Below are positions 2,953 through 60,626 of a DNA stretch of 64,000 bases, one piece after another. Made by a program: the position numbers and the translations under genes. Source of the DNA: Eledone cirrhosa (Eukaryota); assembly GCA_964016885.1 (NCBI GenBank), contig OZ024741.1:239506001-239570000 (forward strand), read 5' to 3'. Below the pieces are notes generated by a model, which made no database searches, was not told the DNA's origin, and saw only the letters and a list, made by a program, of their open reading frames with translations. Position 1 is the first letter of the stretch, and each line of letters starts with the position of its first letter.

Positions 2953-5900
2953 TTAACTAGCAACAACATCTGGTGTTGAAGGTAACTGTCTCTCTGGAGG
3001 TTTCACATATCTGTCTTGGTAATGGTCTCTCTCATTGTTGCTTGATACATCAGGTGGGGCACCATAGATTCCTGAAACAAGTACATCAACTCAACTTACT
3101 ACATAGTCGACATAGACAAACATTAGGTAATTACTGACATTAGTTATCAATCTTTTGTTCAGAACATTCAATTGACTAAGATATAACATAACAATCATTA
3201 ATGAAAATGTGTTTTATTATACCTGAAGAATTGAAATATTATTTAAGTGATCCAATTATTAGAGGTTAACTGAGAATATAAATTAATTATATTAATGATA
3301 ATAGACCCAGAGTAATATATATACTCTGGTAAAGTAGAAACTATTAAACATTACATCTGTGTAGAAACATATATTCACTTATTATAAAATTTATAAAGAA
3401 AGATTGCTAGAAATAATCTTATATTGTTTCACAGTTGTTGAAATTAGAAATTATAAAAATTGAATCCAAACAAATAGATAAATAAAATTGTTTTACCTGA
3501 CATTGCTGGTATTTCTTCATACTGTCTACTTGACCTCTCACTCCAGCACTGTCCACTACTCTTACGACTGGTCAATGTATCAGTAGGATAGTTAGCAGAT
3601 GGTCTGTTGTCTCCATAAGATGTCACCTCTATAGGTTGACTGTATTTCTGCAGTAAAATATAGGTATAATATAGATAGGGTGTAAAGATATATGGTACCA
3701 TTATCTATAAAGAAAACAAAACAATTCTATAGATGCTTCTTATCTGACAACTTTCAATCCTACCATAGAAAATGTACCCAGTATACATAATTAAAAGGCA
3801 GATGTATTGCAGATAATTATCTTATAGATCACAATTAAAAAGAGAAGTGTTAATAGCATTTTTAGACCTTTCTTTATTGGTGACAATATCAATTTAAATT
3901 CTGAGTGACTTAGTATGTTTGTAATGAAATGTAGTCATAGCTGACAGAGAATTCAGCCTATTTATTTTAGAGAGTAATCTGAATCAAACAAAGATCATAT
4001 AAATAAATGTTAGACTTGCTAAAAACAAAGTTATTTAGACTGTGCAATGTATGAATAAATCTACGATTCTTCTGGTGAGGGTCATGTAAACGAGTCACTT
4101 GCCAACAAATATTTTACAATATGCAAACAGCAATAAATCTTTGATGATTTCATATTTCTAAAAGGAACAGATTACATTTTTCATCAGAACATCATAATAT
4201 CATGTTTTCAATCAGAGATATTCTATATAAAAACTAATGGGAAAATAAACAATACTCCTAAATTAACAGAGTAACTATATAAGAAATAATATCCCTACTT
4301 AATTAAATATTTATTAACAGATAGAAAGTATATAATACAGTTTACCTTTGTAGATTTTTGAAGAGATCTATTCATTGTTGATGTCTTCCAGTCTTCAGGA
4401 TAGTAATGGCTTCTAGACTGACTATATCTGTCTGATATCTCTCCTCGATTACCTGACATCACAGATACACCGTTGTTACTTTGATAGATCAACTGTCTCA
4501 TCTCATTACGACATTGGTATGCCTGTTTCTCTTCTGTTGTTCTAGCTGAGTTATTTCTTACATTGTTACATCTCACAATACACAATGTTATAGAAACCAC
4601 AATAGCTATAGATACTATCACAGCTGCTACTACAATGATAATCAACAATGTTGCATCTATTGTGTTATCAGTTGGTACATGGACAGCTGTGAACATTGGT
4701 GATGTCTTGTTACTAACAGTCAGTGTTAAAGAGACACTAGTTGTTGCTGACAGAACTGGAGTACCACTGTCTTTCACAACAAACTCCAGTTGATATGATC
4801 CGGCATCATTTTGGTAAACTGTGCGAGAGTAAGATAAGACACCAGTGAATGAGTCCAGTTTAAATAATTGTTTCTCATTACCTGAAAGGATTTCATATCT
4901 GAGAAAAGCATTCATGTGACTGTCTATATCAGAGGCTTTCAGAAGTGTGATGTCATTCTTACTTTGTGGATGATAGTGGACATCAAGAGTCAAAGGGTCA
5001 ACACTAGGAAATGTAAAATATGGAGCATTATCATTTTTATCCAATACTTCTACTTCAACATTTACTGTGTTATTTAGAGATGGTGTTCCATTGTCTTTGA
5101 CTAAAACCTCAAAGTCATAGAAATCTCTGTGTTCTCTGTCTAAAGACTGGTTTGTTGAAATAAAGCCAGAGTTGATAATCTGGAATGGTAGACGATATTG
5201 GTGTTTATTTCTCAGATAATAACTTAATTCACCTCCCTTACCAACATCTGGGTCTGTAGCATTGATAAAACCAATAGGGAAATTAGCTTTGTCATTCTCA
5301 TAGGTAAGGAACTTGAATGTATCTTTGGTAAAGTGTGGTTTTACATCATTCACATCTAACACTTGTATTGAGAGATCTTTATCAGTTTTCAGAGAAGGTA
5401 ATCCTTTATCTTGACAGGAGACAGTAAAGTGATAATGTTCCTGTGTCTCTCTGTCTACTGCTTTCTTTAGAACTATTTTATATTCTTTAGATCCCATTGA
5501 CTGTAGTTTGAATGTATCGTGTTTAATATCACAGCTGACTTCTCCATTGTGTCCAACATCATTGTCAGTGACCATCACATAAGCAATGAAACTACCAACT
5601 TTGATATCTTCCAGAATGGTAGCTGTGTTGTGATTCTCTGTAGAAATATAGTTGACATCAATATTTGGAGGATTGTTGTGTTGGTTGATAACATTTACCA
5701 TAACAGTTGCTATGGCACTGAGTGGTGGACTGCCGTTATCTCTGGCTTCTATGTATAATTTAAAAGACTCTTCCATATCAATATCTGAAGACTTAGCTAA
5801 ATATAATTTTCCAGTATTTTCAACTAAATTAAAGTATCTTTTCATTTTTTCTGCAGTTTTCCTTGCAAAATAAAAAGATATTTTACCATTCCTGCCAATA

Positions 5901-6697
5901 TCTAAATCATTGGCAGATAATGTCACTAGTGGAATATTCTTCGTATGTTTATGCTCTATAGAGACATTGTAGATACTTTGGGTAAACTGTGGTGTGTTAT
6001 CATTTTCATCTTCTACAGATATTTTAACATTTAAAATACTTTGTTTTGGTGGAGTTCCTGCATCTTTAGCAATTACCTCAATATTGTAACTGTCTTCCTT
6101 TTCTCTGTCTAATTTTTCTTTCAAAATAATTCTTAATGTTGATATTTCATCAGTTTGTTTAGAAACTGATAAAGAAAAATATGCATTATACTTTTTTAAC
6201 TCATATTTGATTAAGCTGTTCTGATATCCAATGTCTTTATCCACAGCATTGGGTATTGACAGTGTTGATCCTCTGCCATCTCTCTCTGAAAACTGAATAT
6301 TGACTTGTTCAGTTGGAAACTCAGGTTGGTGGTCATTGATGTCTTCTATTATGACTTTAATTTTTAATATCTTCATAAATGTCTTGGATTTGTGAACAGC
6401 AACTTTCACTATTTCAAAACATTCTTTCTCATAACTACACACAGACTCAGCATCCAATGTCTGAACAGTGTACAGTTTACCTGTTTTTGTCACATTGAAC
6501 AACTGTTCTCCTTTTTGTTGTAGTTGACTAAATGTAATTAAATCCTTATTCTTTAAGGAGCTATCTGATGTCTGTAAGTCAGTAGCAATGTCCCCTACAT
6601 AAGTATAGGCATTACTCTCTTCTTTAACATGGTATGTGATATGTTCACTTAGATAACAGTGGAAGAACATCAGTAAAATACACAGAAATAACAACAT
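2953..6697 (-). CDS. Pcdh: Protocadherin gene B, 6 cadherin repeats + TM + cytoplasmic tail, ~873 aa
   Basis: Exons 6697-4346 (AAG|gtaaac, phase 0), 3647-3497 (KYSQ...PAMS, phase 1), 3071-2953 (GIYGAPPD...PDVVAS*). Cadherin motifs DINDHQP, LDRE, DENDN, DVNDVKP, DKNDNAP; hydrophobic TM LLIIIVVAAVIVSIAIVVSITLCIV; GT-AG introns keep frame. Confidence 0.93.
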
Positions 6698-7214: not shown

Positions 7215-7254
<40 letters not shown>

Positions 7255-7731: not shown

Positions 7732-8130
7732 ATTCATTGTGTAAAATCCTTTGTTATAAACTGTGAGTTGGTCCCAATGTTCTGTTAATGGTTGTCTGTG
7801 TCACTGCTGCTATGGTGTGACAATGGCTTCATGTTGATGGAATAGTGTTGGTAGTGAGTCAGTGGGAACCAGCAGTTCCCCTCAGTCTTCTGTGTATGTG
7901 TGATGTTTACTGAGTGTGAGTGTATATGAGAGAGAGAGGTGGGGGAGGGTGATGCTTACTCCAGCCTCACTCAGACTAGATGTGTTTCCCCTCACAGAGA
8001 AGAGGGAGAGAAGACACACTATCAGCTCCACTAACAGTCAGCCATAATATGTCTATATAATACGAACATGTCTGATGTAGAGAGACTGACATAGAAATAC
8101 TTAGAAGAGAGAGGTTATATTAACAAAAGT
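7732..8130 (-). promoter_or_regulatory. Conserved promoter + putative leader exon of gene B (exon ~7911-7732)
   Basis: Same block; donor at 7732/7731; large exon begins at 6752. Confidence 0.6.
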
Positions 8131-8509
8131 AGGCTGATGTTGTTCATGTCTATGTAAATACAATGTTAACAATAATAGTTAGTGTGTATTTGACCTAATA
8201 GTAAACTAACTCTCCTATTTAGGATATATTTAGTCAAGTTTAAAGATGATATGTAATCTATTTAAACTATATTAACATTTACAATGTATTTACTATTTAT
8301 TTATATGATAATTTAATTCATATTTATTTTAGATTATATTACACTAGGATATATCTGCTAATATTTGCCTTTTATATATAAAATATAGTCTAAAAACATA
8401 TGAAGATATACAGTTACATGTAATGAGTATTATGAATTATTTATGTAGTCCTAATTATTGTGATAATATTGAAGGTGATATTTCTGTTGTGTTAACTTCT
8501 CAGTCTGAC

Positions 8510-11500
8510 TTAACTAGCAACAACATCTGGTGTTGAAGGTAACTGTCTCTCTGGAGGTTTCACATATCTGTCTTGGTAATGGTCTCTCTCATTGTTGCTT
8601 GATACATCAGGTGGGACACCATAGATTCCTGAAACAAGTACGTCAACTCAACTTACCATATAGTTCATAAAAATGCCATATATTTACAGACGGAAATTAG
8701 TAATCAATCTCTTGTCTACTAGGTTCACGAGGTTAAGATACGAAATTAAAGAAGTATAGGTCAGTTCCGTTAATAATAGACCCAGAGTGTGACATATATA
8801 CTCTGGTAAAGTAGAAACTATTAAATATAACATCTGTGTAGAAACATATATTCACTTATAAAATTTATAAAGAAAGATTGATAGAAACAATCTTAGATTC
8901 ACAGTTGTTGAAATTAGAAATTATGAAAATTGAATTCTAATAAATAGATAAATAGAATTGTTTTACCTGACATTGCTGGTATTTCTTCATACTGTCTACT
9001 TGACCTTTCACTCCAACACTGGCCACTACTCTTACGACTGGTCAATGTATCAGTGGGATAGTTAGCAGATGGTCTGTTGTCTCCATAAGATGTCACCTCT
9101 ATAGGTTGACTGTATTTCTGCAGTAAAATATAGGTACAATATAGATAGAGTGTAAAGATATATGGTACCATCATCTATAAAAAAAAAACATCAATTCTAT
9201 AGATGCTTCTTATCTGACAACTTTCAATCCTACCATGGGAAATGTACCCAGTATACATAAGTAAAAGGCAGATGTATTGCAGATAATTATCTTATAGATC
9301 ACAATTAAAAAGAGAAGTCTTAATAGCATTTTTAGACCTTTCATTACTGGTGACAATATCAATTTACATTGTGTGTGACTTAGTATGATTGTAATGAAAT
9401 GTTGTAGTCATCGCTGACAGATTTGTCTTAGAGAGGAATCTGACTCATACAAAGATCTTATAAATCAATGTTAACTTAGACTTGCTAAAAAGAAGTTATT
9501 TAGACAACAATGTATGAATAAATCCAGGATTCTCCTGGTGATGCCTATGTGAGTCACTTGCCAACAAATGATTTATGCAAACAGCACTACTTCTTTGATA
9601 ATTTCATATTTCAAAAAGTAACAGATTACATTTTTCATCAGAACATCTTGTTTTTAATCAGAAATATTCTATATGAAAACTGATGGGAAATTAAACAGTA
9701 CTCTTATATTAAAAGAGTAACTATATAATAAATAATATCCTACTTGATCAAATATTATTTACGAACAGATAAAAAATATATAATATAGTTTACCTTTGTG
9801 GATTTTTGAAGAGATCTGTTCATTGTTGATGTCTTCCAGTCTTCAGGATAGTAATGGCTTCTAGACTGACTATATCTGTCTGATATATCTCCTCGATTAC
9901 CTGACATCACAGATACACCGTTGTTACCTTGATAGATCAACTGTCTCATTTCATTACGACATTGGTATGCCTGTTTCTCTTCTGTTGTTCTAGCTGAGTT
10001 ATTTCTTACATTGTTACATCTCACAATACACAATGTTATAGAAACCACAATAGCTATAGATACTATCACAGCTGCTACTACAATGATAATCAACAATGTT
10101 GCATCTATTGTGTTATCAGTTGATACATGGACAGCTGTGAACATTGGTGATGTCTTGTTACTAACAGTCAGTGTTAAAGAGACACTAGTTGTTGCTGACA
10201 GAACTGGAGTACCACTGTCTTTCACAACAAACTCCAGTTGATATGATCCAGCATCATTTTGGTAAACTGTGCGAGAGTAAGATAAGACACCGGTGAATGA
10301 GTCCAGTTTAAATAATTGTCTCTCATTACCTGAAAGGATTTCATACCTGAGAAAAGCATTCATGTGACTGTCTATATCAGAGGCTTTCAGAAGTGTGATG
10401 TCATTCTTACTTTGTGGATGATAGTGGACATCAAGAGTGAAAGGGTCAACACTAGGAAATGTAAAATATGGAACATTATCATTTTTATCTAATACTTCCA
10501 CTTCAACAGTCACTGTATTATTTAGAGATGGTGTTCCATTGTCTTTGACTAAAACCTCAAAGTCATAGAAATCTCTGTACTCTCTATCTAAAGACTGGTT
10601 TGTTGAAATAAAGCCAGAGTTGATAATCTGGAATGGTAGACGATATTGGTGTTTATTTCTCAGATGATAACTTAATTCACCTCCCTTACCAACATCTGGG
10701 TCTGTAGCATTGATAAAACCAATAGGGAAATTAGCTTTGTCATTCTCATAGGTAAGGAACTTGAATGTATCTTTGGTAAAGTGTGGTTTTACATCATTCA
10801 CATCTAAGACTTGTATTGAGAGATCTTTATCAGTTTTCAGAGAAGGTAATCCTTTATCTTGACAGGAGACAGTAAAGTGATAATGTTCCTGTGTCTCTCT
10901 GTCTACTGCTTTCTTTAGAACTATTTTATATTCCTTAGATCCCATTGACTGTAGTTTGAATGTATCATGTTTGATATTACAGCTGACCTCTCCATTTTGT
11001 CCAACATCATTGTCAGTGACCATCACATAAGCAATGAAACTACCAACTTTGATATCTTCTAGAATGGTAGCTGTGTTGTGATTCTCTGTAGAAATATAGT
11101 TGACATCAATATTTGGAGGATTGTTGTGTTGGTTGATAACATTTATCATAACAGTTGCTATAGAACTGAGTGGTGGACTGCCATTATCTCTGGCTTCTAT
11201 ATATAATTTAAAAGACTCTTCCATATCCATTTCTGAAGATTTAGCTAAATATAACTTTCCAGTATTTTCATCTAAATCAAAGTATCTTTTCATTTTCTCT
11301 GAAGTTGTCCTAGCAAAATAGAAAGATATTTTACTATTTCTACCAATATCTAAATCATTAGCAGATAATGTCACTACTGGAATATTCTTTTTATGTTTAT
11401 GTTCTATAGAGACATTGTAGACACTTTGAGAAAATTCTGGTTTATTATCATTTTCATCTTCTACAGATATTTTAACATTTAAAATACTTTGTTTTGGTGG

Positions 11501-12145
11501 AGTGCCACCATCTTTAGCAATGACCTCAATATTGTAGCTGTCTTTCTTTTCCCTGTCTAATTTCTTTTCTAAAATAATTTCTAATGTTGATATTCCACCA
11601 GCTTCCTTGGAAACACTTAATGAAAATTGTTCATTATTATCTTTTAGTTCATATTTAATTAATCTATTTTGATACCCAACATCTTTGTCAACAGCATTGG
11701 GTATGGCCTTCTTCATACCATCTCGATCTCCTTCCCCAAACATAAGAGTGATGTCTTTCTCAGGAAACTCAGGTTGGTGGTCATTGATGTCTTCTATTAT
11801 GACTTTAATTTTTAATATCTTCATAAATGTCTTGGATTTGTGAACAGCAACTTTAATTATTTCAAAACATTCTTTCTCATAACTACACACAGACTCAGCA
11901 TCCAATGTCTGAACAGTGTACAGTTTACCTGTTTTTGTCACATTGAACAATTGTTCTCCCTTTTGTTGTAGTTGACTAAATGTAATTAAATCCTTATTCT
12001 TTAAGAAGGAGCTATCTGATGTCTGTAAGTCAGTAGCAATGTCCCCTATATAGGTATAGGGATTACTCTCTTCTTTAACATGGTATATAATATGTTCACT
12101 TAGATAACAGTGGAAGAAAGTCAGTAAAATACACAGAAATAACAT
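8510..12145 (-). CDS. Pcdh: Protocadherin gene C, ~873 aa
   Basis: Exons 12145-9794, 9117-8967, 8628-8510; same motifs, phases and GT-AG sites as gene B. Confidence 0.93.
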
Positions 12146-16226: not shown

Positions 16227-19200
16227 TTAACTAGCAACAACATCTGGTGTTGAAGGTAACTGTCTCTCTGGAGGTTTCACATATCTGTCTTGGTAATGGT
16301 CTCTCTCACTGTTGCTTGACACATCAGGTGGGACACCATAGACTCCTGAAACAAGTACATCAACTCAACTTACCACATAGTTCATATAAATGCTATACAG
16401 TTACTGACAGAAATTAGTAATCAACCTCTTGTCAACAAGGTTCACAGAGTTAACATATAAAATAACAATTATTAAAGAAGTTATATTTTCCCAACCCTAA
16501 TGTCCTTAGATATAATACTTTCAATGATCCAATGATTAGTGGTTGACGGAGAATATAGGTCAGTTTCATTAATGATAATAGACCCAGAGTATGATGTATA
16601 TAAGGTGATGAAGTAGAAACTATTAAACATTATATCTATGTAGAAACATATATTCATTTATTATAACATTTATAAAGATTGATAGAAATATCAGATTGTT
16701 TCATAATTGTGGAAATTAAAAATTATGAAAAGTAAATTAAAATAAATAGATAAAAGAATATATTGTTTTACCTGACATTGCTGGTATTTCTTCATACTGT
16801 CTACTTGACCTCTCACTCCAGCATTGTCCACTCTTACGACTGGTCAATGTATCAGTGGGATAGTTAGCAGCTGGTCTGTTGTCTCCATAAGATGTCACCT
16901 CTATAGGTTGACTGTATTTCTGCAGTACAATATAGTTAAAATATAGATAGGGTGTAAACATATCATTAAAGACAATATATCTAATATATACTAAATTTCC
17001 TATATTGATAGGTACATGAATATTGATAAAATATTAGACAATTGTATACAAAAGTATCAACTACATAGACCCTTCTACTTGATCATTTTCATTTATACCA
17101 TAGAAGATGTATACAGTACATTTTATTTTATGGCTTACTCTAAGGTATAAACATTTCCTTTCTAGTTCTTCCTTTCTTAGTGATAAGTTCATATTGTGTG
17201 TGAGTTTGTGATACAAGGTTGTAGTCATACCAGGCTGGAAATTTGAAAAGTAGCATTACAGAAGAACTGTTTACAGAACAATCTGAATCCCAAAAAGATA
17301 GCTAATATCTTATTGACATAGTATAAAAGAGACTGTCTAAAAACAAAGTGTCTGAATACACCATTGATATTCCTGATGGGCTTTTTAAAGGTTCATTAAA
17401 CAAAATATAATTTAAAACATGAAAAAACAGTAAATCTTGGATTATCTCAGATTTTAAAAACAAACAAAATTCATTTCTCATCTACAGATCAAAATGCTAT
17501 TTTTTCAACCAGAAATAGTCAATTACTAAAGAATACTCATAAATTGATAATTTTAACTGAGCAAGATATTTATTGAAATATTTCTGACTAAGAGATAGGA
17601 AATATATAATATAATTTACCTTTGTGGATTTTTGAAGAGATCTGTTCATTGTTGATGTCTTCCAGTCTTCAGGATAGTAATGGCTTCTAGACTGACTATA
17701 TCTGTCTGATATCTCTCCTCGATTACCTGACATCACAGATACACTGTTGTTACCTTGATAGATCAACTGTCTCATCTCATTACGACATTGGTATGCCTGT
17801 TTCTCTTCTGTTGTTCTAGCTGAGTTATTTCTTACATTGTTACATCTCACAATACACAATGTTATAGAAACCACAATAGCTATAGATACTATCACAGCTG
17901 CTACTACAATGATAATCAACAATGTTGCATCTATTGTGTTATCAGTTGGTACATGGACAGCTGTGAACATTGGTGATGTCTTGTTACTAACAGTCAGTGT
18001 CAAAGAGACACTAGTTGTTGCTGACAGAACTGGAGTACCACTGTCTTTCACAACAAACTCCAGTTGATATGATCCAGCATCATTTTGGTAAACTGTGCGA
18101 GAGTAAGATAAGACACCAGTGAATGAGTCCAGTTTAAATAATTGTCTCTCATTACCTGAAAGGATTTCATACCTGAGAAAAGCATTCATGTGACTGTCTA
18201 GATCAGAGGCTTTCAGAAGTGTGATGTCATTCTTACTTTGTGGATGATAGTGGACATCAAGAGTGAAAGGGTCAACACTAGGAAATGTAAAATATGGAGC
18301 ATTATCATTTTTATCTAATACTTCCACTTCAACATTCACTGTGTTATTTAGAGATGGTGTTCCATTGTCTTTGACTAAAACCTCAAAGTCATAGAAATCT
18401 CTGTGTTCTCTGTCTAAAGATTGGTTTGTTGAAATAAAACCAGAGTTGATAATCTGGAATGGTAGATGATATTGGTGTTTATTTCTCAGATAATAACTTA
18501 ATTCACCTCCCTTACCAACATCTGGGTCTGTAGCATTGATAAAACCAATAGGGAAATTAGCTTTGTCATTTTCATAGGTAAGGAACTTGAATGTATCTTT
18601 GGTAAAGTGTGGTTTTACATCATTCACATCTAAGACTTGTATTGAGAGATCTTTATCAGTTTTGAGAGAAGGTAATCCTTTATCTTGACAGGAGACAGTG
18701 AAGTGATAATGTTCCTGTGTCTCTCTGTCTACTGCTTTCTTTAGAACTATTTTATATTCCTTAGATCCCATTGACTGTAGTTTGAATGTATCATGTTTAA
18801 TATTACAGCTGACCTCTCCATTGTGTCCAACATCATTGTCAGTGACCATCACATAAGCAATGAAACTACCAACTTTGATATCTTCCAGAACGGTAGCTGT
18901 GTTGTGATTCTCTGTAGAAATATAGTTGACATCAATATTTGGAGGATTGTTGTGTTGGTTGATAACATTAACCATAACAGTTGCTATGGAACTGAGAGGT
19001 GGATTGCCATTATCTCTGGCTTCAATATATAATTTAAAAGACTCTTCCATATCAATTTCTGAAGATTTAGCTAAATATAACTTTCCAGTATTTTTATCTA
19101 AATCAAAGAATCTTTTCATTTTCTCTGAAGTTGTCCTCGCAAAATAGAAAGATATTTTACCATTTCTACCAATATCTAAATCATTAGCAGATAATGTCAC

Positions 19201-19971
19201 TACTGGAATATTCTTTTTATGCTTGTGCTTTATAGAGACATTGTAGATACTTTGGGAGAATTTTGGTATATTATCATTTTCATCTTCTACAGATATTTTA
19301 ACATTTAAAATACTTTGTTTTGGTGGAGTTCCACCATCTTTAGCAATGACCTCAATATTGTAACTATCTTTCTTTTCCCTGTCTAATTTCATTTCTAAAA
19401 TAATTCTTAATGTTGATATTCCACCAGCTTCTTTTGAAACACTTAATGAAAATTGTCTTTCATCATCTTTCAGTTCATATTTAATTAATCTGTTTTGATA
19501 TCCCACATCTTTATCAATGGCACTGGGAATAGCCTTCTTCAAACCTCTACCATCTCCTTCCCCAAACACTAGAGTGATTTCTTTCCCTGGAAACTCAGGT
19601 TGGTGGTCATTGATGTCTTCTATTATGACTTTAATTTTTAATATCTTCATAAATGTCTTGGATTTGTGAACAGCAACTTTCACTATTTCAAAACATTCTT
19701 TCTCATAACTACACACAGACTCAGCATCCAATGTCTGAACAGTGTACAGTTTACCTGTTTTTGTCACATTGAACAATTGTTCTCCCTTTTGTTGTAGTTG
19801 ACTAAATGTAATTAAATCCTTATTCTTTAAGAAGGAGCTATCTGATGTCTTTAAGTCAATAGCAATGTCCCCTACATAAGTATAGGGATTACTCTCTTCT
19901 TTAACATGGTATGTGATATGTTCACTTAGATAACAGTGGAAGAAAGTCAGTAAAATACACAGAAACAACAT
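16227..19971 (-). CDS. Pcdh: Protocadherin gene D, ~872 aa
   Basis: Exons 19971-17620, 16919-16772 (one Ser shorter), 16345-16227; intact frame. Confidence 0.93.
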
Positions 19972-20154
19972 CTCTGCTCTTGATGTTAATTCAGTATCCT
20001 GGGCAAAAACAGTTTTGAATATTCAATCTGAAATAGAAATAGATTTAACATATTAATGAAATCTGCTACACTAAGTTTGTCTTCCCTTTTTTCATTAAAG
20101 AAAATTATATAATCGATCAAATTGTTTGAGATATTAGAGTCACCTTAGAAATAC

Positions 20155-20291
20155 AAAACTATTACAATGATTAATATGGATTGTTTTACATTTTTTCTTT
20201 TTTACACCATTCTAGATCCATAAATGGATCTAGAATGGTGTAAAAAAGAAAGAAATGTAAAACAATCCATATTAATCATTGTAATAGTTTT
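20155..20291. repeat. Near-perfect inverted repeat (arms ~67 bp, 2-nt loop, one bulge)
   Basis: aaaactattacaatg...tctagatccat aa atggatctaga...cattgtaatagtttt. Confidence 0.92.
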
Positions 20292-42800: not shown

Positions 42801-45379
42801 AAAACCTCCATGCATCCTGAGATTCGCCAGCACTGCACCTGATGTCCCCCCTCCATACACACGCACACGTATTTCATGACTCATACACTATTCAATACAC
42901 TGTTCATTATCAAGACATTTAAACATTATTCTATGTACTATACATGCACCTTTGATGAGCTATAGTGCACCTGAGCACTGTACACACTAATTTCATTATT
43001 ATTATTAAAATATATAATATAGTTTACCTTTGTGGATTTCTGAAGAGATCTGTTCATTGTTGATGTCTTCCAGTCTTCAGGATAGTAATGACTTCTAGAC
43101 TGACTATATCTGTCTGATATCTCTCCTCGATTACCTGACATCACAGATACACTGTTGTTACCTTGATAGATCAACTGTCTCATCTCATTACGACATTGGT
43201 ATGCCTGTTTCTCTTCTGTTGTTCTAGCTGAGTTATTTCTTACATTGTTACATCTCACAATACACAATGTTATAGAAACCACAATAGCTATAGATACTAT
43301 CACAGCTGCTACTACAATGATAATCAACAATGTTGCATCTATTGTGTTATCAGTTGATACATGGACAGCTGTGAACATTGGTGATGTCTTGTTACTAACA
43401 GTCAGTGTTAAAGAGACACTAGTTGTTGCTGACAGAACTGGAGTACCACTGTCTTTCACAACAAACTCCAGTTGATATGATCCGGCATCATTTTGGTAAA
43501 CTGTACGCGAGTAAGATAAGACACCAGTGAATGAGTCCAGTTTAAATAATTGTTTCTCATTACCTGAAAGGATTTCATACCTGAGAAAAGCATTCATGTG
43601 ACTGTCTAGATCAGAGGCTTTCAGAAGTGTGATGTCATTCTTACTTTGTGGATGATAGTGGACATCAAGAGTGAAAGGGTCAACACTAGGAAATGTAAAA
43701 TATGGAGCATTATCATTTTTATCTAATACTTCCACTTCAACATTTACTGTGTTATTTAGAGATGGTGTTCCATTGTCTTTGACTAAAACCTCAAAGTCAT
43801 AGAAATCTCTGTGTTCTCTGTCTAAAGATTGGTTTGTTGAAATAAAGCCAGAGTTGATAATCTGGAATGGTAGACGATATTGGTGTTTATTTCTCAGATA
43901 ATAACTTAATTCACCTCCCTTACCAACATCTGGGTCTGTAGCATTGATAAAACCAATAGGGAAATTAGCTTTGTCATTCTCATAGGTAAGGAACTTGAAT
44001 GTATCTTTGGTAAAGTGTGGTTTTACATCATTCACATCTAACACTTGTATTGAGAGATCTTTATCAGTTTTGAGAGGAGGTAATCCTTTATCTTGACAGG
44101 AGACAGTAAAGTGATAATGTTCCTGTGTCTCTCTGTCTACTGCTTTCTTTAGAACTATTTTATATTCCTTAGATCCCATTGACTGTAATTTGAATGTATC
44201 ATGTTTGATATTACAGCTGACCTCTCCATTATGTCCAACATCATTGTCAGTGACCATCACATAAGCAATGAAACTACCAACTTTGATATCTTCCAGAATG
44301 GTAGCTGTGTTGTGATTCTCTGTAGAAATATAGTTGACATCAATATTTGGAGGATTGTTGTGTTGGTTGATAACATTTACCATAACAGTTGCTATGGCAC
44401 TGAGAGGAGGGCTGCCTTCATCTCTAGCTTCAATATATAATTTAAAAGACTCTTCTATATCCATTTCTGAAAATTTAGCTAAATACAACTTTCCAGTATT
44501 TTCATCTAAATTGAAGTGTTTTGTCACCTTTTCAATAGTTTTCCTAGCAAAATAGAAAGATATTTTACCATTCCTGCCAGTATCTAAATCTTTTGCAGAT
44601 AATGTCACTACTGGAATATTCTTTTTATGGTCATGTTTTATAGAGACATTGTAGATACTTTTGGAAAATTGTGGTGGGTTATCATTTTCATCTTCTACAG
44701 ATATTTTAACATTTAAAATACTTTGTTTTGGTGGAGTTCCTCCATCTTTAGCAATGACTTCAATATTGTAGCTGTCTTTTTTTTCTCTGTCTAATTTATC
44801 TTTCAAAATAATTCCTATTGTTGATATTTCATCAGTTTGTTTAGAGACTGATAAGGAAAAATATTCATTATGCTTTTTTAATTCATATGTAATTAAGCTG
44901 TTCTCATATCCCACATCTTTGTCAACAGCATTAGGTATGGCTTTCTTCATACCTTTACCATCTCCTTCCCTAAAATTAAGTGTGATGTCTTTCTCAGGAA
45001 ACTCAGGTTGGTGGTCATTGATGTCTTCTATTATGACTTTAATTTTTAATATCTTCATAAATGTCTTGGATTTGTGAACAGCAACTTTAACTATTTCAAA
45101 ACATTCTTTCTCATAACTACACACAGACTCAGCATCCAATGTCTGAACAGTGTACAGTTTACCTGTTTTTGTCACATTGAACAATTGTTCTCCCTTTTGT
45201 TGTAGTTGACTAAATGTAATTAAATCCTTATTCTGTAAGAAGGAGCTATCTGATGTCTGTAAGTCAGTAGCAATGTCCCCTATATAAGTATAGGGATTAC
45301 TCTCTTCTTTAACATGGTATGTGATATCTTCACTTAGATAACAGTGAAACAAAGTCAGTAAAATACACAGAAATAACAT
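39857..45379 (-). CDS. Pcdh: Protocadherin gene G, ~871 aa (ends PDVVS*)
   Basis: Exons 45379-43028, 41384-41237, 39972-39857 (3 nt shorter); intact frame. Confidence 0.93.
40035..41140 (-). mobile_element. Second copy of the RLE-type retrotransposon fragment (co-duplicated with the gene)
   Basis: Nearly identical to 23840-24945 and at the same position in the last intron. Confidence 0.7.
41419..41976 (+). mobile_element. 5'-truncated RTE-clade LINE
   Basis: QERRLRWYGHVMRM...GNRGVERPKMTWDEVIKADL is typical of the RTE C-terminus; (GAT)n tail; flanking direct repeat gatagcat; absent from the same intron of genes D and E. Confidence 0.8.
42660..43006 (+). mobile_element. 3' fragment of a CR1/L2-like LINE
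   Basis: TRGHANKVRK...RKHFFTLRVAESWNKL...FK, a CR1-group C-terminal signature; (ATT)n tail. Confidence 0.75.
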
Positions 45380-49102: not shown

Positions 49103-52100
49103 TTAGTTACCTTCAACACCAGATGTTGTTGCTAGTTGTCTCTCTGGAGGTTTCACATATCTGTCTTGGTAATGGTCTCTCTCATTGTTGCTTGACACAT
49201 CAGGTGGGACACCATAGATTCCTGAAACAAGTACATCAACCCAACTTACTATATAGTTCACAAAGACAGTCAATAGTTATTTACTGACATCAGTTATCAA
49301 TCTTTTGTCCGCTAGATTCACTGGATTAAGATATATAATATCAATCATTAAAGAATTAATAGTACACCATACAATTACATCTTTACAATCTTAAACACAT
49401 CAATAAACCACTGACTAGTTGAATAAAGCGATATATTTAGTAATTTAAGACAAACATTAAATTATCAAAATATTAGTCATATATTAGTAGTAATATAGTG
49501 ACAAAATGAGTAAAAATAATTATGAACATCAGAACACAATGCTTTTTTTAGATAATACTTTGATATGTAACACTGAGAAAGACGATAAACACAGTAATAA
49601 AGATATTGTTTTACCTGACATTGCTGGTATTTCTTCATACTGTCTACTTGACCTTTCACTCCAGCACTGTCCACTACTCTTACGACTGGTCAATGTATCA
49701 GTGGGATAGTTAGAAGATGGTCTGTTGTCTCCATAAGATGTCACCTCTATAGGTTGACTGTATTTCTGATTTAAAATACAGTTACAAGATAGAGTATAGG
49801 GATATTTAGGACAATGTACCTAAAATATACTAAATTTTGAGATATTGATGAGCACATGTATACTTTTGAAATATTCAATTATTTTTTATAAAAGAATCAA
49901 CTATGTAGATCCTCTTTATTTGATCCTTTTTCACCATACCAAAGAACAAGTGTACCACCATGCATTTTGGTGGTAAAAACCCAGCGTCCACATACACCCT
50001 CCACAACACTAATATCAAGAAGTCTTCTTGTGAACGTGACCTGGGTATTACTGTCAGCAGCGATTTGCGTTGGATTAAGCACGTCTCTAGCATTGTCAAG
50101 AAGGCTGAGGGTGTCTTAGCATCACTCAACAAGACTTGTCAGCCGCTCTCCAGCTATCTATTTAAAGCTGTCATCATCATCATCTTTGTTTAACGTCCAT
50201 TTTCCATACTACCATGGGTTATAGCTATAGTGCGGCCACACTTAGAATTTGAATCACCAGTCTGGAACCCGTATCTTGCTCAGAACATTGATGGCCTGGA
50301 AACTGTTCAGAGATGTGCAACCAAGTGAATACCCTCCATCAGGCATCTACCTTACTCTGAACGCCTTGCTTCCCTGGGCATGGATACATTGAAGCTCCAA
50401 CGTCTGGCAACTGACTTGGTAAACACCCACAAAATTATTAACCATCTTGCCAACAACAACCCTGAGTACCTTTTTGACTTCCATGTGGACATGCCTACAA
50501 AGTCAGAAAATAGCACAGCTCCCATGACTTTCAGAAAGATTCTTTCACACTCAGAGTTGCTGAAGCATGGAACAAACTACCTGCATCAGTTGTTAGCTGT
50601 CGAGACACTGCATCCTTTAAAACCTCCATGCTTCCTGAGATTCACCAACACTACAGCTAATATCTCCTCCCCATACACACGCACACATGTATATTATGGC
50701 TCATACACTATTCACTTCCCTGACATTTGTATATTATTCTATGTACTATACATGCACCTTTGGTGAGTTGTAGTGCACCTGAGCACTACACAATAATTTC
50801 ATTATTATTATATAACATATTCCAAATAATTATTTCATAGCTTATTCTGAAAAATATATCTAAATATACCTTTTTTAGGTCTATCTTAATATTGTGGGTG
50901 AGTATGTAGGTTTTTAGTGCAAATTTGGAGGTATAACAAATTTAGCATGTTTGTCAACAGAAGTACATTTTCCAAAACAATCTGAAATTATCCAAAATAG
51001 ATGATACCAGTGTTAAAATCCTAGTGACAAAGTTGCTCTGGCGACAAATGTCAAGATTCTGGCTCCAGTGTATGACTGCACCCTTTTTTTACAATTCTGT
51101 TCACATTGTACTCGTTAAATATTAATTTACAAAAAAATAGGTATAACATGGATTATCTCATATTTTAAACAAACTGAAAATATCAGCACCTGATAATGTT
51201 TTTTTTTTTTTCCACCAGATATTCTATATTAAAATCGATCAGAAATTAAGCAGCAACCATAAATGGGTAATTCAAACAGTAATATAAAATATTAGGTTTT
51301 ATCATACAAAGTTAAACATTATTTATTAATAGAAAGAAAATATAAAAAATAGGTTACCTTTGTGGATTTCTGAAGAGATCTGTGCATTGTTGATGTCTTC
51401 CAGTCTTCAGGATAGTAATGGCTTCTAGACTGACTATATCTGTCTGATATCTCTCCTCGATTACCTGACATCACAGATACACTGTTGTTACCTTGATAGA
51501 TCAACTGTCTCATCTCATTACGACATTGGTATGCCTGTTTCTCTTCTGTTGTTCTAGCTGAGTTATTTCTCACATTGTTACATCTCACAATACACAATGT
51601 TATAGAAACCACAATAGCTATAGATACTATCACAGCTGCTACTACAATGATAATCAACAATGTTGCATCTATTGTGTTATCAGTTGGTACATGGACAGCT
51701 GTGAACATTGGTGATGTCTTGTTACTAACAGTCAGTGTTAAAGAGACACTAGTTGCTGCTGATAGAACTGGAGTACCACTGTCTTTCACAACAAACTCCA
51801 GTTGATATGATCCGGCATCATTTTGGTAAACTGTGCGAGAATAAGATAAGACACCAGTGAATGAGTCCAGTTTAAATAATTGTTTCTCATTACCTGAAAG
51901 GATTTCATACCTGAGAAAAGCATTCATGTGACTGTCTATATCAGAGGCTTTCAGAAGTGTGATGTCATTCTTACTTTGTGGATGATAGTGGACATCAAGA
52001 GTGAAAGGGTCAACACTAGGAAATGTAAAATATGGAGCATTATCATTTTTATCTAATACTTCCACTTCAACATTCACTGTGTTATTTAGAGATGGTGTTC

Positions 52101-53709
52101 CATTATCTTTGACTAAAACCTCAAAGTCATAGAAATCTCTGTGTTCTCTGTCTAAAGACTGGTTTGTTGAAATAAAGCCAGAGTTGATAATCTGGAATGG
52201 TAGATGATATTGGTGTTTATTTCTCAGATAATAACTTAATTCACCTCCCTTACCAACATCTGGGTCTGTAGCATTGATAAAACCAATAGGGAAATTAGCT
52301 TTGTCATTCTCATAGGTAAGGAACTTGAATGTATCTTTGGTAAAGTGTGGTTTTACATCATTCACATCTAACACTTGTATTGAGAGATCTTTATCAGTTT
52401 TAAGAGAAGGTAATCCTTTATCTTGACAGGAGACAGTAAAGTGATAATGTTCCTGTGTCTCTCTGTCTACTGCTTTCTTTAGAACTATTTTATATTCTTT
52501 AGATCCCATTGACTGTAGTTTGAATGTATCATGTTTGATATTACAGCTGACCTCTCCATTGTGTCCAACATCATTGTCAGTAACCATCACATAAGCAATG
52601 AAACTACCAACTTTGACATCTTCCAGAATGGTAGCTGTGTTGTGATTCTGTGTAGAAATATAGTTAACATCAATATTTGGAGGATTGTTATGTTGGTTAA
52701 TAACATTTACCATAACAGTTGCAATGGAACTAAGAGGAGGGCTGCCTCCATCTCTGGCTTTTATGTATAATTTAAAAGACTCTTCCATATCAATTTCTGA
52801 TGATTTAGCTAAATACAACTTTCCAGTATTTTCATCTAAATCAAAGAATCTTTTCGTTTTCTCTGAAGTTGTCATTGCAAAATAGAAAGATATTTTACCA
52901 TTGCTGCCAACATCTAAATCTTTGGCAGATAATGTCACTACTGGAATATTCTTTTTATGTTTATGTTTTATAGAGACATTGTAGATACTTTGAGAGAATT
53001 TTGGTATATTATCATTTTCATCTTCTACAGATATTTTAACATTTAAAATACTTTGTTTTGGTGGAGTTCCTCCATCTTTAGCAAGGACATCAATGTTGTA
53101 ACTGTCTTTTTTTTCCCTGTCTAATTTCTTTTCTAGAATAATTCTTAATGTTGATATTCCACCAGCTTCCTTGGAAACACTTAACGAAAAGTGTTCCTCG
53201 TCATGTTTCAGTTCATACTTAATTAATCTGTTCTGATACCCAACATCTTTATCCACAGCATTTTCTATTGATCTCTTGGTGCCTTTTCCATCAGTTTCAG
53301 AAAACTGAATATTCACTTGTTCAGTTGGAAACTTAGGTTGGTGGTCATTGATGTCTTCTATTATTACTTTAATTTTTAATATCTTCATAAATGTCTTTGA
53401 TTTGTGAACAGCAACTTTCACTATTTCAAAACATTCTTTCTCATAACTACACACAGACTCAGCATCCAATGTCTGAACAGTGTACAGTTTACCTGTTTTT
53501 GTCACATTAAACAATTGTTCTCCCTTTTGTTGTAATTGACTAAATGTAATTAAATCCTTATTCTTTAAGAAGGAGCTATCTGATGTCTGTAAGTCAGTGG
53601 CAATGTCCCCTACATAAGTATAGGGATTACTCTCTTCTTTAACATGGTATGTGATATGTTCACTTAGATAACAGTGGAAGAAAGTCAGTAAAATACACAG
53701 AAATAACAT
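49103..53709 (-). CDS. Pcdh: Protocadherin gene H, ~873 aa, variant C-terminus QLATTSGVEGN*
   Basis: Exons 53709-51358, 49765-49615, 49221-49103; terminal exon carries a 33-bp in-frame inversion. Confidence 0.92.
49948..50813 (+). mobile_element. Longer 5'-truncated CR1/L2-like LINE
   Basis: KCTTMHFGGKNP...ERDLGITVSSDLRWIKHV, VRPHLEF, VWNPYL and the same 3' end and ATT tail as the other copies. Empty site in gene F near 32560. Confidence 0.8.
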
Positions 53710-56765: not shown

Positions 56766-59700
56766 TTAACTAGCAACAACATCTGGTGTTGAAGGTAACT
56801 GTCTCTCTGGAGGTTTCACATATCTGTCTTGGTAATGGTCTCTCTCATTGTTGCTTGACACATCAGGTGGGACACCATAGATACCTGAAAGAAATAATTC
56901 AATTCAACTTACCACATAGTTCACATAGACAATAGATATCTTCTGACATTAATAATCCATCTCTTGTCCAGTCTGATATAAAATGACAATTATTAAAAAG
57001 GTTCTTTTTGACCATCCCTAAAATTCTTCAAAATTATAAACATAAATTATTATAATGATAATAATAAACATGGAAAATGAAATGTTTTTACCTGACATTG
57101 CCGGTATTTCTTCATACTGTCTACTTGACCTTTCACTCCAGCACTGTCCACTACTCTTACGACTAGTCAGTGTATCAGTGGGATAGTTAGACGATGGTCT
57201 GTTGTCTCCATAAGATGTCACCTCTATAGGCTGACTGTATTTCTGCTGTAAAGTTAGTTAAAACAGATTGTAAAGGTATTTATAATATTGGATATGAAAT
57301 GTATGCAATATCTAGGTAAAAATCAGTACATGTTAACTGTTGAAATATGGTACAACCATCTACAAAAATATCAATTGTCTTTTACAAATATTCTAATGAT
57401 TCCACTACATTATTGTCAAATTTCTGCAGGACAATTCACAAGGGGATTTCAAACTTCCAACTTAAATCCTTCCTTCCAATCCTACCACACAAAATGGATT
57501 CATTATACATTAGTCAAAGTCTTATGTATTGCAAATAATTATTTCATAGCACACTGTAAGTGTGGTTGGTGTTAGCAAGGGCTTCCAGCCATAGAAAACC
57601 AGCCAGAAACACCCCTATATGAGCGAAACACTGTCACCCGACAACTTGCCTCAAAATAGGATCCACCTAACCCATGCTAGTGTGGAAGATATACGCTAAT
57701 CGATGATGATGATGATGATGACTTTTAATGAATAAAGGTTCACATGGTCTTTTGACCTCACCGTTAATGGTGATAATATAAATTTATATTGTGCATGAGT
57801 TTGCAGTGCAAGGTAGGAATGACAAGAGGTACAGAATTAAGGAGATGTGTCTTCTGGATAACAGGTTAGAAGAATCTGAATAGTACAAAGTAGGGAGGTT
57901 CCACAATTTTAGACAACAACCTATTGAGAAATAAATTGCATTCTGCAATGTAATATGTAATATATATATGAATCTTCTAGTGGTATCCTTCTTAAACATT
58001 CTTTTACCAACAAATAGCTTACAATTAGCAAACAGCAGTAAATCTTGGATTAACACACATTTAAAACATAACCCGTCTAAACCCATGCTAGCATGGAAGA
58101 TAGACGTTAAACGAATATATACAATATTTATTTCTATATCATAACAATTATTTCTAACAAGACATATTCTTTTAAAAACTCTGGAGACATAAAATTTGCC
58201 TAAATTGGTAATTTAAATAGTAACTAAGAGAATAAACATTATTTAATAGCAGATAAAAGATATTGAATAGACTTTACCTTTGTAGATTTTTGAAGAGATC
58301 TGTTTATTGTTGATGTCTTCCAGTCTTCAGGATAGTAATGGCTTCTAGACTGACTATATCTGTCTGATATCTCTCCTTGATTACTTGACATCAGAGATAC
58401 ACTGTTGTTACCTTGATAGATCAACTGACTCATCTCATTACGACATTGGTATGCCTGTTTCTCTTCTGTTGTTCTAGCTGAGTTATTTCTTACATTGTTA
58501 CATCTCACAATACACAATGTTATAGAAACCACAATAGCTATAGATACTATCACAGCTGCTACTACAATGATAATCAACAATGTTGCATCTATTGTGTTAT
58601 CAGTTGATACATGGACAGCTGTGAACATTGGTGATGTCTTGTTACTAACAGTCAATGTTAAAGAAACACTAGTTGTTGCTGACAGAACTGGAGTACCACT
58701 GTCTTTCACAACAAACTCCAGTTGATATGATCCGGCATCATTTTGGTAAACTGTGCGAGAGTAAGATAAGACACCGGTGAATGAGTCCAGTTTAAATAAT
58801 TGTTTCTCATTACCTGAAAGGATTTCATACCTGAGAAATGCATTCATGTGACTGTCTATATCAGAGGCTTTCAGAAGTGTGATGTCATTCTTACTTTGTG
58901 GATGATAGTGGACATCAAGAGTGAAAGGGTCAACACTAGGAAATGTAAAATATGGAGCATTATCATTTTTATCTAATACTTCCACTTCAACATTCACTGT
59001 GTTATTTAGAGATGGTGTTCCATTGTCTTTGACAAAAACCTCAAAGTCATAGAAATCTCTGTGTTCTCTGTCTAAAGACTGGTTTGTTGAAATAAAACCA
59101 GAGTTGATAATCTGGAATGGTAGACGATATTGGTGTTTATTTCTCAGATAATAACTTAATTCACCTCCCTTACCAACATCTGGGTCTGTAGCATTGATAA
59201 AACCAATAGGGAAATTAGCTTTGTCATTCTCATAGGTAAGGAACTTGAATGTATCTTTGGTAAAGTGTGGTTTTACATCATTCACATCTAACACTTGTAT
59301 TGAGAGATCTTTATCAGTTTTCAGAGAAGGTAATCCTTTATCTTGACAGGAGACAGTGAAGTGATAATGTTCCTGTGTCTCTCTGTCTACTGCTTTCTTT
59401 AGAACTATTTTATATTCCTTAGATCCCATTGACTGTAATTTGAATGTATCATGTTTGATATTACAGCTGACCTCTCCATTATGTCCAACATCATTGTCAG
59501 TGACCATCACATAAGCAATGAAACTACCAACTTTGATATCTTCCAGAATGGTAGCTGTGTTGTGATTCTCTGTAGAAATATAGTTGACATCAATATTTGG
59601 AGGATTGTTGTGTTGGTTGATAACATTTACCATAACAGTTGCTATAGAACTGAGTGGTGGACTGCCATCATCTCTGGCTTTTATGTATAATTTAAAATCT

Positions 59701-60626
59701 TCCATATCAATTTCTGAAGATTTAGCTAAATATAACTTTCCAGTATTTTTATCTAAATCAAAGAATCTTTTCATTTTCTCTGAAGTTGTCATTGCAAAAT
59801 AGAAAGATATTTTACCATTCCTGCCAATATCTAGATCATTGGCAGATAATGTCACTACTGGAATATTCTTGTTGTGCTTATGTTTTATAGAGACATTGTA
59901 AATACTTTGAGAAAATTCTGGTTTATTATCATTTTCATCTTCAACAGATATTTTAACATTTAAAATACTTTGTTTTGGTAGAGTGCCACCATCTTTAGCA
60001 ATAATTTCAATATTGTAACTATCTTTCTTTTCCCTGTCTAATTTATTTTCTAAAATAATTTCTAATGTTGATATTCCACCTGCTTCCTTTGAAACACTTA
60101 ATGAAAATTGTCCTTCATCATCTTTCAGTTCATATTTAATTAATCTGTTTTGGTATCCCACATCTTTGTCAACAGCATTGGGTATGGCCTTCTTCATACC
60201 TCTACCATCTCCTTCCCTAAACACTAGTGTAATGTCTTTCTCAGGAAACTCAGGTTGGTGGTCATTGATGTCTTCTATTATGACTTTAATTTTCAATATC
60301 TTCATAAATGTCTTGGATTTGTGAACAGCAACTTTAATTATTTCAAAACATTCTTTCTCATAACTACACACAGACTCAGCATCCAATGTCTGAACAGTGT
60401 ACAGTTTACCTGTTTTTGTCACATTGAACAATTGTTCTCCCTTTTGTTGTAGTTGACTAAATGTAATTAAATCCTTATTCTTTAAGGAGCTATCTGATGT
60501 CTGTAAGTCAGTAGCAATGTCCCCTACATAAGTATAGGGATTACTCTCTTCTTTAACATGGTATGTGATATATTCACTTAGATAACAGTGGAAGAAAGTC
60601 AGTAAAATACACAGAAATAACAACAT
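56766..60626 (-). CDS. Pcdh: Protocadherin gene I, ~872 aa
   Basis: Exons 60626-58278, 57242-57092, 56884-56766; intact frame. Confidence 0.93.

What the first reader, a model, noticed from the sequence alone, without database searches (positions are those of the whole stretch)
4346..60626. Paralog diversity is confined to EC2-EC3; EC1, EC4-6, TM and tail are almost identical
Seen: across the eight proteins, differences begin just after DINDHQP(E/K)F at the start of EC2 and end at VINQHNNPP at the end of EC3 (in gene B ~6315-5700). The other ~550 aa of the large exon differ at only a few positions, and even silent sites are similar, while introns are much more diverged. Known: EC2-EC3 determine homophilic specificity in vertebrate clustered protocadherins, and the cephalopod expansion is independent. 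Inference: a convergent neuronal identity system in which gene conversion homogenises the scaffold while the specificity domains diversify. Cephalopod Pcdh arrays are known; I cannot confirm whether this domain-level pattern has been described.
Basis: partly seen in the sequence, partly recalled or inferred. Interest (0 to 1): 0.8.

Follow-up and report, generated by a model that had tools for sequence, protein, structure and literature searches.

The report
Octopus protocadherin array keeps charge-matched locks
A row of 46 octopus-type cell-adhesion genes has near-identical membrane-side halves but a patchwork of old variants in two outer domains, where distant opposite charges vary together in three lineages, likely because gene conversion evens out the scaffold while selection keeps surfaces predicted to let each protein recognise its own kind.

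Summary
Observation confirmed. The eight genes belong to a 46-gene octopod protocadherin array. Among them EC2 and EC3 are 79% and 86% identical (dS 0.45, 0.25); EC1 and EC4-to-tail are 96-99% (dS 0.01-0.08). Introns are near background. Concerted evolution is shown: across subfamilies dS is 1.0-1.6 in EC1-3 but 0.01-0.11 in EC4-tail, and EC4-6 trees group by species while EC1-3 trees pair orthologues across Octopus and Argonauta. Corrections: EC1 is uniform only within a subfamily; EC2-3 is a mosaic of short cassettes shared between species, with dN/dS about 0.3, not fast divergence; each gene has its own near-identical 5' exon and tail exons. Added here: charge-complementary pairs (172-218, 165-224, 164-262/300, 144-263) co-vary in three lineages without shared intervening sequence, and two map on or beside known vertebrate trans contacts. 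Binding and neuronal function are untested. The same domain pattern is known in vertebrate clusters and conversion was suggested for cephalopod arrays; eight searches found no domain-level description for cephalopods, but three key papers were not seen. The scan noted a like pattern on another sub-array (e1-9545755).

The parts
4346..6697 (-).
5672..6328 (-). G1 EC2-EC3, the variable mosaic region (EC2 6328-5996, EC3 5995-5672)
4346..5671 (-). G1 EC4-EC6, TM and tail: scaffold homogenised across the array and by species
6329..6646 (-). G1 EC1: homogenised within the 32-gene core subfamily only
6131..6217 (-). G1 EC2 codons that co-vary with EC3: mature residues 144 (6217), 164 (6157), 165 (6154), 172 (6133)
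5747..5995 (-). G1 EC3 partner codons: mature residues 218 (5995), 224 (5977), 262 (5863), 263 (5860), 300 (5749)
3497..3650 (-). G1 second coding exon (tail; acceptor within 3 nt of 3650), 97% identical among the eight
2953..3071 (-). G1 third coding exon to the stop codon
7732..8100 (-). G1 non-coding 5' exon and conserved upstream block (likely promoter), spliced from 7732 to about 6724; upstream limit approximate
9794..12145 (-). G2 (P19) large exon; tail exons about 9120-8966 and 8627-8510; 5' exon donor near 14190
17620..19971 (-). G3 (P18) large exon; tail exons about 16922-16771 and 16344-16227; 5' exon donor 22587
25960..28311 (-). G4 (P17) large exon; tail exons about 25203-25052 and 23776-23659; 5' exon donor near 30980
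34209..36557 (-). G5 (P16) large exon; tail exons about 32385-32231 and 31844-31727; 5' exon donor 39014
43028..45379 (-). G6 (P15) large exon; tail exons about 41387-41236 and 39971-39857; 5' exon donor 48386
51358..53709 (-). G7 (P14) large exon; tail exons about 49768-49614 and 49220-49103; 5' exon donor near 55765
58278..60626 (-). G8 (P13) large exon; tail exons about 57245-57091 and 56883-56766; 5' exon donor near the window end (about 64005)
1..92 (-). Start of a ninth gene (P21); its 5' exon donor lies near 2188

Best explanation
This is part of a tandem array of 46 protocadherin genes whose EC4-to-tail sequence is shared within each species and whose EC2-EC3 is a mosaic of short variants shared between species, likely through ectopic gene conversion, with selection likely keeping charge-matched EC2/EC3 surfaces that are predicted to form an isoform-specific antiparallel dimer between cells. 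Shown: the array, the exon structure, species-wise homogenisation of EC4-6, subfamily-wise homogenisation of EC1, mosaicism of EC2-3, and covariation of four sets of residues. Inferred: DNA-level conversion as the mechanism; long tracts spread freely through exons that all paralogues can share (scaffold, tail exons, 5' exon block), stop where introns have lost homology, and survive in EC2-3 only as short tracts, because a tract that makes two paralogues alike or breaks a matched pair is selected against. Inferred by homology: the pairs sit in the trans EC2:EC3 interface and a common EC4-6/tail lets isoforms be interchangeable in cis and in signalling. Untested: binding, specificity, expression per neuron, self-avoidance.
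For: Core (32 genes) versus the P38-43 subfamily, 192 pairs: dS 1.56, 1.36, 1.03 in EC1-3 against 0.064, 0.056, 0.048, 0.012, 0.106 in EC4, 5, 6, TM, tail. Within-species EC4-6 identity 98-100% (95% for EC6 in O. vulgaris) against 91-96% between this genome, Octopus and Argonauta. 17 near-fixed lineage-diagnostic columns in EC4-6, 0 in EC1-3. On 28 chosen rows, holding 10 genes of this genome together is rejected for EC1-3 (p-AU 1.4e-6) and is already the best tree for EC4-6 (support 99). Identity falls from 0.94-0.98 to under 0.5 within 40 nt of the large exon's donor and of both ends of the next exon. Site incompatibility rises with distance in EC2-3, p = 0.001 of 1000 permutations; the same short variants recur in all lineages. 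In 69 de-duplicated core genes: acidic 172 goes with basic 218 in 25 of 25, basic 172 with basic 218 in 0 of 12; acidic 165 with basic 224 in 5 of 5; basic 164 with net negative 262+300 in 11 of 11; 13 of 864 EC2xEC3 pairs pass family-wise p < 0.05 for cross-lineage concordance. Carriers of the 172-218 pair are no more alike between the two sites (0.80 vs 0.82). By the gamma-B4 alignment 165-224 maps to 156-215, beside the gamma-B3 trans contact L156:M216 (10.1101/493106), and 164-262 joins the EC2 D-E loop and EC3 C-D loop named as the variable top of the interface (PMC7082078, PMC5001838). A second array repeats the domain pattern with its own scaffold.
Against: dN/dS stays under 1 in both domains and in every 30-codon window of EC2-3. 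The EC2 A and A-B segments are highly variable yet show no linkage with EC3 (r2 0.033-0.035, the independence level), and vertebrate pairs mapped in advance gave no signal: 118-306 z -1.6, 118-304 1.4, 130-262 1.9, two more not variable. Two other top pairs (139-292, 152-262) have positive charge correlation and look like shared history. The permutation null treats genes as independent; 165-224 rests on 5 genes, and its three carriers here are slightly more alike overall (0.69 vs 0.62). One O. sinensis model breaks 144-263. P25 and P27 have identical EC2-3 and 8 of 496 core pairs exceed 90%, so not every gene is a distinct code. O. vulgaris neurons express about 21 protocadherins each, some broadly and some by cell type (PMC9712504), which does not show stochastic choice.
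Confidence: 0.66

Rival explanations
1. Conversion is real, but EC2-3 variation is old, tolerated polymorphism: divergence itself lowers conversion there, and covariation reflects shared history or contacts inside one molecule or in cis. The array mainly supplies dose of a generic adhesion protein.
For: dN/dS about 0.3; no covariation for the EC2 A and A-B segments; near-identical upstream blocks in 43 of 46 genes could give co-expression; delta-protocadherins show heterophilic binding within subfamilies (PMC7082078).
Against: A neutral island should be erased from its edges, yet the same short variants persist in this genome, Octopus and Argonauta; charge rules hold in each lineage separately and without shared intervening sequence; by cadherin topology (own knowledge) the EC2 B-C and D-E loops and the EC3 C-D loop lie at opposite ends of the two-domain unit.
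Confidence: 0.18
2. Homogenisation is templated by reverse-transcribed mRNA rather than by DNA-DNA conversion, which would explain why it stops at splice sites; the recognition role is as in the best explanation.
For: Identity drops within 20-40 nt of three splice junctions; large exon, both tail exons and the 5' exon are all homogenised; RNA contigs also cover part of the upstream block at low depth; reverse-transcriptase-like fragments are common in the region (recognised from own knowledge).
Against: Pairs of genes share intron pieces at 97-99%, with partners changing from piece to piece; about 150 nt of intron after the 5' exon is still about 90% identical in core genes; no intron-less copy was seen among 46 genes, though tail exons of P45 and P46 were not located.
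Confidence: 0.1
3. Recent lineage-specific duplications or unequal crossovers copied one 3' gene half onto many 5' halves; no ongoing conversion is needed.
For: Some recent duplicates exist (P25/P27, P23/P26); PMC9795677 dates a burst of octopod protocadherin duplication at 8-14 Ma from sequence distance.
Against: A copied 3' half would carry its introns, which are near background; single-copy members have EC1-3 orthologues in Octopus or Argonauta but a species-specific EC4-6.
Confidence: 0.04
4. The uniform scaffold is an assembly artefact: reads of many paralogues collapsed to one consensus.
For: Near-identical repeats do collapse in short-read contigs (deep single contigs over EC4-tail).
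Against: Every pair among the eight differs by 11-21 silent and 5-14 replacement changes in EC4-tail; unique flanks match DNA contigs with 0-1 differences (that run may be the assembly's own source); the pattern recurs in public models of three other species.
Confidence: 0.02

Closest known systems
Coleoid protocadherin sub-arrays (Albertin et al. 2022, PMC9068888; Styfhals et al. 2019, PMC6339937; PMC9795677)
   Same: Head-to-tail multi-exon genes made by full gene duplication, no shared constant exons; orthologous arrays in O. sinensis, O. vulgaris, O. bimaculoides and Argonauta hians (best hits 82-87%); gene conversion suggested in one sentence.
   Different: The passages read give no domain-level analysis, no EC1-3 versus EC4-6 tree conflict, no cassette mosaic and no covarying pairs. 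The 8-14 Ma burst in PMC9795677 may partly date conversion, since this array has orthologous members in Argonauta.
Vertebrate clustered protocadherins, above all Pcdh-alpha (Noonan et al. 2004 as cited in PMC4978886; PMC5001838; PMC5106212)
   Same: Six EC repeats, TM and part of the tail in one large exon; highest dS in EC2-3 and lowest in EC5-6; mouse alpha identities 96, 69, 59, 85, 98, 84% for EC1-6 (PMC4978886 Table 1) resemble this profile; variable EC2 D-E loop and EC3 C-D loop.
   Different: Not orthologous (about 30% identity). A common tail is reached by homogenising separate tail exons in each gene, not by splicing to shared constant exons. Each gene has a non-coding 5' exon. PMC4978886 says vertebrate EC2-3 appear not to be converted; here they are shuffled in short tracts.
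Non-clustered delta-2 protocadherins (Pcdh18, 19, 10, 17; PMC7082078)
   Same: Best structural matches of the EC1-4 model; antiparallel EC1-4 dimer with subtype-specific contacts, including a salt bridge, from the EC2 D-E loop.
   Different: Single dispersed genes with partial heterophilic binding; no tandem array.

Membership tests
Protocadherin (cadherin superfamily) | Six extracellular cadherin repeats with protocadherin-type first repeat, one TM, cytoplasmic tail | tested here: met
   Pfam Cadherin (6 stretches) and Cadherin_2 at residues 20-99; solved protocadherins lead both searches apart from CELSR1
Coleoid clustered protocadherin sub-array | Tandem same-strand multi-exon genes from full duplication, each with its own 3' exons | tested here: met
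   46 intact large exons on the minus strand; tail exons clear in 43 of 46, diverged in P44, not located for P45, P46; splice joints in RNA-type contigs
Coleoid clustered protocadherin sub-array | Orthologous array in other octopods | tested here: met
Concerted evolution by gene conversion | Paralogues closer within than between species in the converted region, orthologues paired in the spared region, silent sites included | tested here: met
   cross-species part on proteins only
Concerted evolution by gene conversion | DNA-templated, non-reciprocal tracts seen directly | tested here: inconclusive
   Mosaic intron sharing favours DNA tracts; sharp edges at splice sites leave an RNA template open
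Vertebrate clustered protocadherins (alpha, beta, gamma) | Variable exons spliced to shared constant exons (alpha, gamma) or single-exon genes (beta) | tested here: not met
   Each gene has its own four exons
Vertebrate clustered protocadherins (alpha, beta, gamma) | Orthology to the vertebrate cluster | tested here: not met
   27-31% identity to both clustered and non-clustered vertebrate proteins; independent expansion per PMC9068888; no tree with vertebrate rows was built
Vertebrate clustered protocadherins (alpha, beta, gamma) | Strictly homophilic antiparallel EC1-4 trans dimer with EC2:EC3 specificity | tested here: inconclusive
   Indirect only: covarying charge pairs in an antiparallel register; pairs mapped in advance negative; no binding data
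Vertebrate clustered protocadherins (alpha, beta, gamma) | Promiscuous EC5-6 cis dimers | not tested
   Near-identical EC5-6 is compatible with it, nothing more
Vertebrate clustered protocadherins (alpha, beta, gamma) | Stochastic promoter choice per neuron, CTCF-dependent | not testable with these tools
   Upstream blocks are about 95% alike in core genes; contigs cannot rank expression

The most novel reading that the evidence does not exclude
Octopods build a neuronal recognition code by gene conversion: a pool of short, ancient EC2 and EC3 cassettes is reshuffled among dozens of genes on a common scaffold, and selection admits only combinations whose charges match across the cell-cell interface (172-218, 165-224, 144-263, 164 with 262 or 300). 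The code can then be read from sequence and reprogrammed by two-residue swaps, and published young ages for these arrays date conversion, not gene birth.
Probability: 0.45. Interest if true: 0.78.

Novelty: new variant of a known kind. Interest (0 to 1): 0.58.

Why it matters
Whether cephalopod protocadherins recognise self as vertebrate ones do is open; no binding study appeared in the searches. This array shows the vertebrate evolutionary signature arising independently in a different gene architecture, and it names residue pairs for a direct test. It also warns that whole-gene distances mis-date these arrays, and that reads from the scaffold, tail exons or 5' exon cannot tell paralogues apart in expression studies.

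Tried and rejected
No site-level test of positive selection was obtained; only domain and 30-codon ratios, all under 1 in EC2-3. Shared constant exons at the array end: rejected, each unit has its own. The conserved block downstream of each gene was first read as 3' UTR; RNA-type contigs join it to the next gene's large exon. A guessed 20-base pattern missed most of this array but pointed to the second one. Mutual information per lineage (20 of 861 pairs above z 2 in all three lineages, 5.2 expected) did not require the same alleles and was replaced by the concordance test. Vertebrate pairs mapped in advance gave no signal. Distance-dependent incompatibility was not significant for EC1 or, among the eight, for EC3 and EC4-tail. 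Runs X1, X5, X8 hold small shares and other organisms; they were used only for splice joints. Rows dropped: one truncated O. sinensis model and 8 near-duplicates (77 to 69) for covariation; P26 and P27; P46 and its orthologue from the diagnostic-column count. Albertin 2015 and Noonan 2004 are not held; Wang and Ragsdale 2017 was not sought; of the Albertin 2022 supplements only one 3,805-character file was searchable. Any of these may describe the domain pattern.
Full report
Observation. The window (G000:C2:239506001-239570000) holds eight intact minus-strand exons of 783-784 codons, each followed by a GT donor, and the first 92 bases of a ninth gene. They encode a signal peptide, six cadherin repeats, a TM segment and part of a tail. 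Over 28 pairs, EC2 and EC3 are 79.4% and 85.8% identical with dS 0.45 and 0.25; EC1, EC4, EC5, EC6, TM and tail are 96-99% identical with dS 0.007-0.077. Variable columns are 83 of 219 against 39 of 549. Intron ends align at 70-79%, shuffled controls at 64-67%.

The array. In 664 kb fetched around the window, 46 intact large exons lie on one strand between 239.13 and 239.66 Mb. Thirty-two (P02-P33, including the eight) form a core subfamily; P01 and P34-P46 have divergent N-termini. Each gene is complete: two tail exons are clear in 43 of 46, and a conserved upstream block is found for 43 of 46. Contigs of RNA-type runs join that block to the large exon (7732 to about 6724) and the large exon to both tail exons. 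So these are four-exon full duplicates, in line with Albertin et al. 2022. Closest proteins are from O. sinensis, O. vulgaris, O. bimaculoides and Argonauta hians at 82-87%: an octopod.

Concerted evolution. Core against the P38-43 subfamily (192 pairs): dS 1.56, 1.36, 1.03 in EC1-3 and 0.012-0.106 from EC4 to tail. Protein-level selection cannot make this contrast in silent sites. EC1 is uniform only within a subfamily (54-66% between). Among 64 de-duplicated units of four other species, core-type EC4-6 is 98-100% identical within a species (95% for EC6 in O. vulgaris) and 91-96% between this genome, Octopus and Argonauta; EC2-3 is 68-78% within species. EC4-6 has 17 near-fixed lineage-diagnostic columns (two are gap columns), EC1-3 none. 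The EC1-3 tree pairs P34, P35, P36, P37, P38-43, P44 and P45 with genes of other species; the EC4-6 tree groups by lineage. On 28 rows that I chose after seeing that tree, a clade of 10 genes of this genome is rejected for EC1-3 (p-AU 1.4e-6) and present for EC4-6 (support 99). P46 and its orthologue stand mostly outside the homogenised pool. Identity drops to under 0.5 within 40 nt of three splice junctions, which rules out copying of whole 3' halves; pairs of genes share intron pieces at 97-99% with changing partners, which favours DNA tracts but does not exclude an RNA template. A second array about 0.6 Mb away (16 intact exons in 200 kb) repeats the profile (90, 79, 76, 95, 97, 97% for EC1-6) with a scaffold only 65-68% identical to this one in EC5-6.

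EC2-3 is a mosaic. dN/dS is 0.28-0.36 there against 0.13-0.20 in EC1 and EC4-6: raised, but under 1. Incompatibility between sites rises with distance (0.18 at 1-10 nt to 0.55-0.60 beyond 100 nt among the eight; p = 0.001), and each gene's nearest relative changes from one 25-codon block to the next. The same short variants of the EC2 A strand, B strand, D-E loop and EC3 C-D loop recur in this genome, Octopus and Argonauta in other combinations. Diversity is thus old and reshuffled. The 32 core genes give 31 distinct EC2-3 sequences.

Covariation. Numbers count from the first residue of EC1. With 69 de-duplicated core genes (29 here, 21 Octopus, 19 Argonauta), 13 of 864 EC2xEC3 column pairs show the same allele association across lineages at family-wise p < 0.05; the top three are 165-224, 164-262 and 172-218, and the EC2 D-E loop is the only EC2 block with a broad signal. 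Charges match: acidic 172 with basic 218 in 25 of 25 genes, basic with basic in 0 of 12, p at most 0.0034 in each lineage; acidic 165 with basic 224 in 5 of 5; basic 164 with a net negative 262+300 in 11 of 11; 144-263 has r = -0.93, the strongest of 1088 pairs. These charge tests were chosen, so their p-values are not independent of it. In this genome all 8 genes with K300 have E164, and basic 144 goes with T263 in 9 of 9, S144 with K263 in 23 of 23. Linkage decays to about 0.06 beyond 25 codons, and carriers of 172-218 or 164-300 are no more alike between the sites than other genes (0.80 vs 0.82; 0.68 vs 0.66). By the gamma-B4 alignment (counted by hand) 164, 165, 172, 218, 224, 262 correspond to 155, 156, 163, 209, 215, 253. 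L156:M216 is a trans contact of gamma-B3 in simulations (10.1101/493106), 253 a specificity residue (PMC5106212), and the EC2 D-E and EC3 C-D loops form the variable top of the EC2:EC3 interface (PMC7082078, PMC5001838). As EC2 numbers rise (165 to 172) the EC3 partners fall (224 to 218): an antiparallel register. Against: the variable EC2 A and A-B segments show no linkage to EC3, pairs mapped in advance gave nothing, some top pairs lack charge logic, genes are not independent samples, and no dimer model or binding data exist. The single-chain EC1-4 model (pLDDT 85) matches vertebrate protocadherin EC1-4 structures but gives no contacts.

Literature. Passages read: PMC9068888 (one short supplement file searched), PMC6339937 (with supplement passages), PMC4978886, PMC5001838 (section 7), PMC5106212 (section 10), 10.1101/493106, PMC8901172, PMC7082078, PMC9712504, PMC9795677. 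Noonan 2004 and Albertin 2015 are known only as cited there. The domain pattern is established for vertebrate clusters; conversion in cephalopod arrays is suggested without domain analysis. Eight searches showed no cephalopod domain-level or binding study; the library lacks most subscription papers. Strand topology of cadherin domains is from my own knowledge.

Verdict. The feature is real and concerted evolution of the scaffold is close to certain; the recognition code is likely but untested. It works like a vertebrate alpha cluster but is not a member of that family. New variant of a known kind; interest 0.58.

Noticed in passing
window 7732-8100 and 42 equivalent blocks in the array: A non-coding 5' exon plus upstream block is about 95% identical among core genes and sits only 400-1700 nt after the previous gene's stop codon; the last 150 nt of the exon are 95-99% alike even in divergent subfamilies. 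Its regulatory motifs were not analysed.
   Followed up: partly
G000:C2:238.35-238.52 Mb (L061-L080): A second protocadherin array, at least 16 intact large exons on the same strand, with the same domain profile, a more variable EC1 and EC4, and its own scaffold.
   Followed up: partly
window 5672-5995 (EC3 and the EC3-EC4 linker, all eight genes): Several of the usual acidic calcium-binding motifs at the EC3-EC4 junction look degenerate (judged by eye against recalled cadherin motifs); this junction may be more flexible than in vertebrate protocadherins.
   Followed up: no
G000:C2:239672389-239673227, 239238715-239238945, 239434804-239434914: Fragments: a broken EC4-to-tail copy beyond the 5' end of the array, an isolated TM/tail piece, and a duplicated N-terminal piece upstream of P28.
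   Followed up: no
G000:C2:239440322-239478323 (P23-P27): P25 and P27 have identical EC2-3 proteins and P23/P26 are 98% alike there: a recent block duplication or long conversion tract.
   Followed up: partly
G000:C2:239129947-239132325 (P46): The last gene has escaped homogenisation except in EC6 (92%), while P45, 80 kb from its neighbour, is still converted in EC5-TM: a gradient at the array's edge.
   Followed up: partly
window about 23800-25000 and 40000-41200; 20100-22300 and 36700-38900 approximate: G4 and G6 share intron insertions at 94-97% that occur in no other spacer of the array; the second pair of ranges is estimated from spacer offsets.
   Followed up: no
window 3647-3650 and equivalents: Many paralogues have tandem AG acceptors three bases apart at the second coding exon, which would add or drop one residue; O. 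sinensis models list isoforms that differ by one residue.
   Followed up: no
window 33024-33638 (-), 50329-50763 (+), about 480-960: Transposon-like remnants (recognised from own knowledge, not scanned) and a very high-copy repeat in the spacers.
   Followed up: no
window 49103-49220 (G7 last exon): G7 has a different last eight residues from the other core genes.
   Followed up: no
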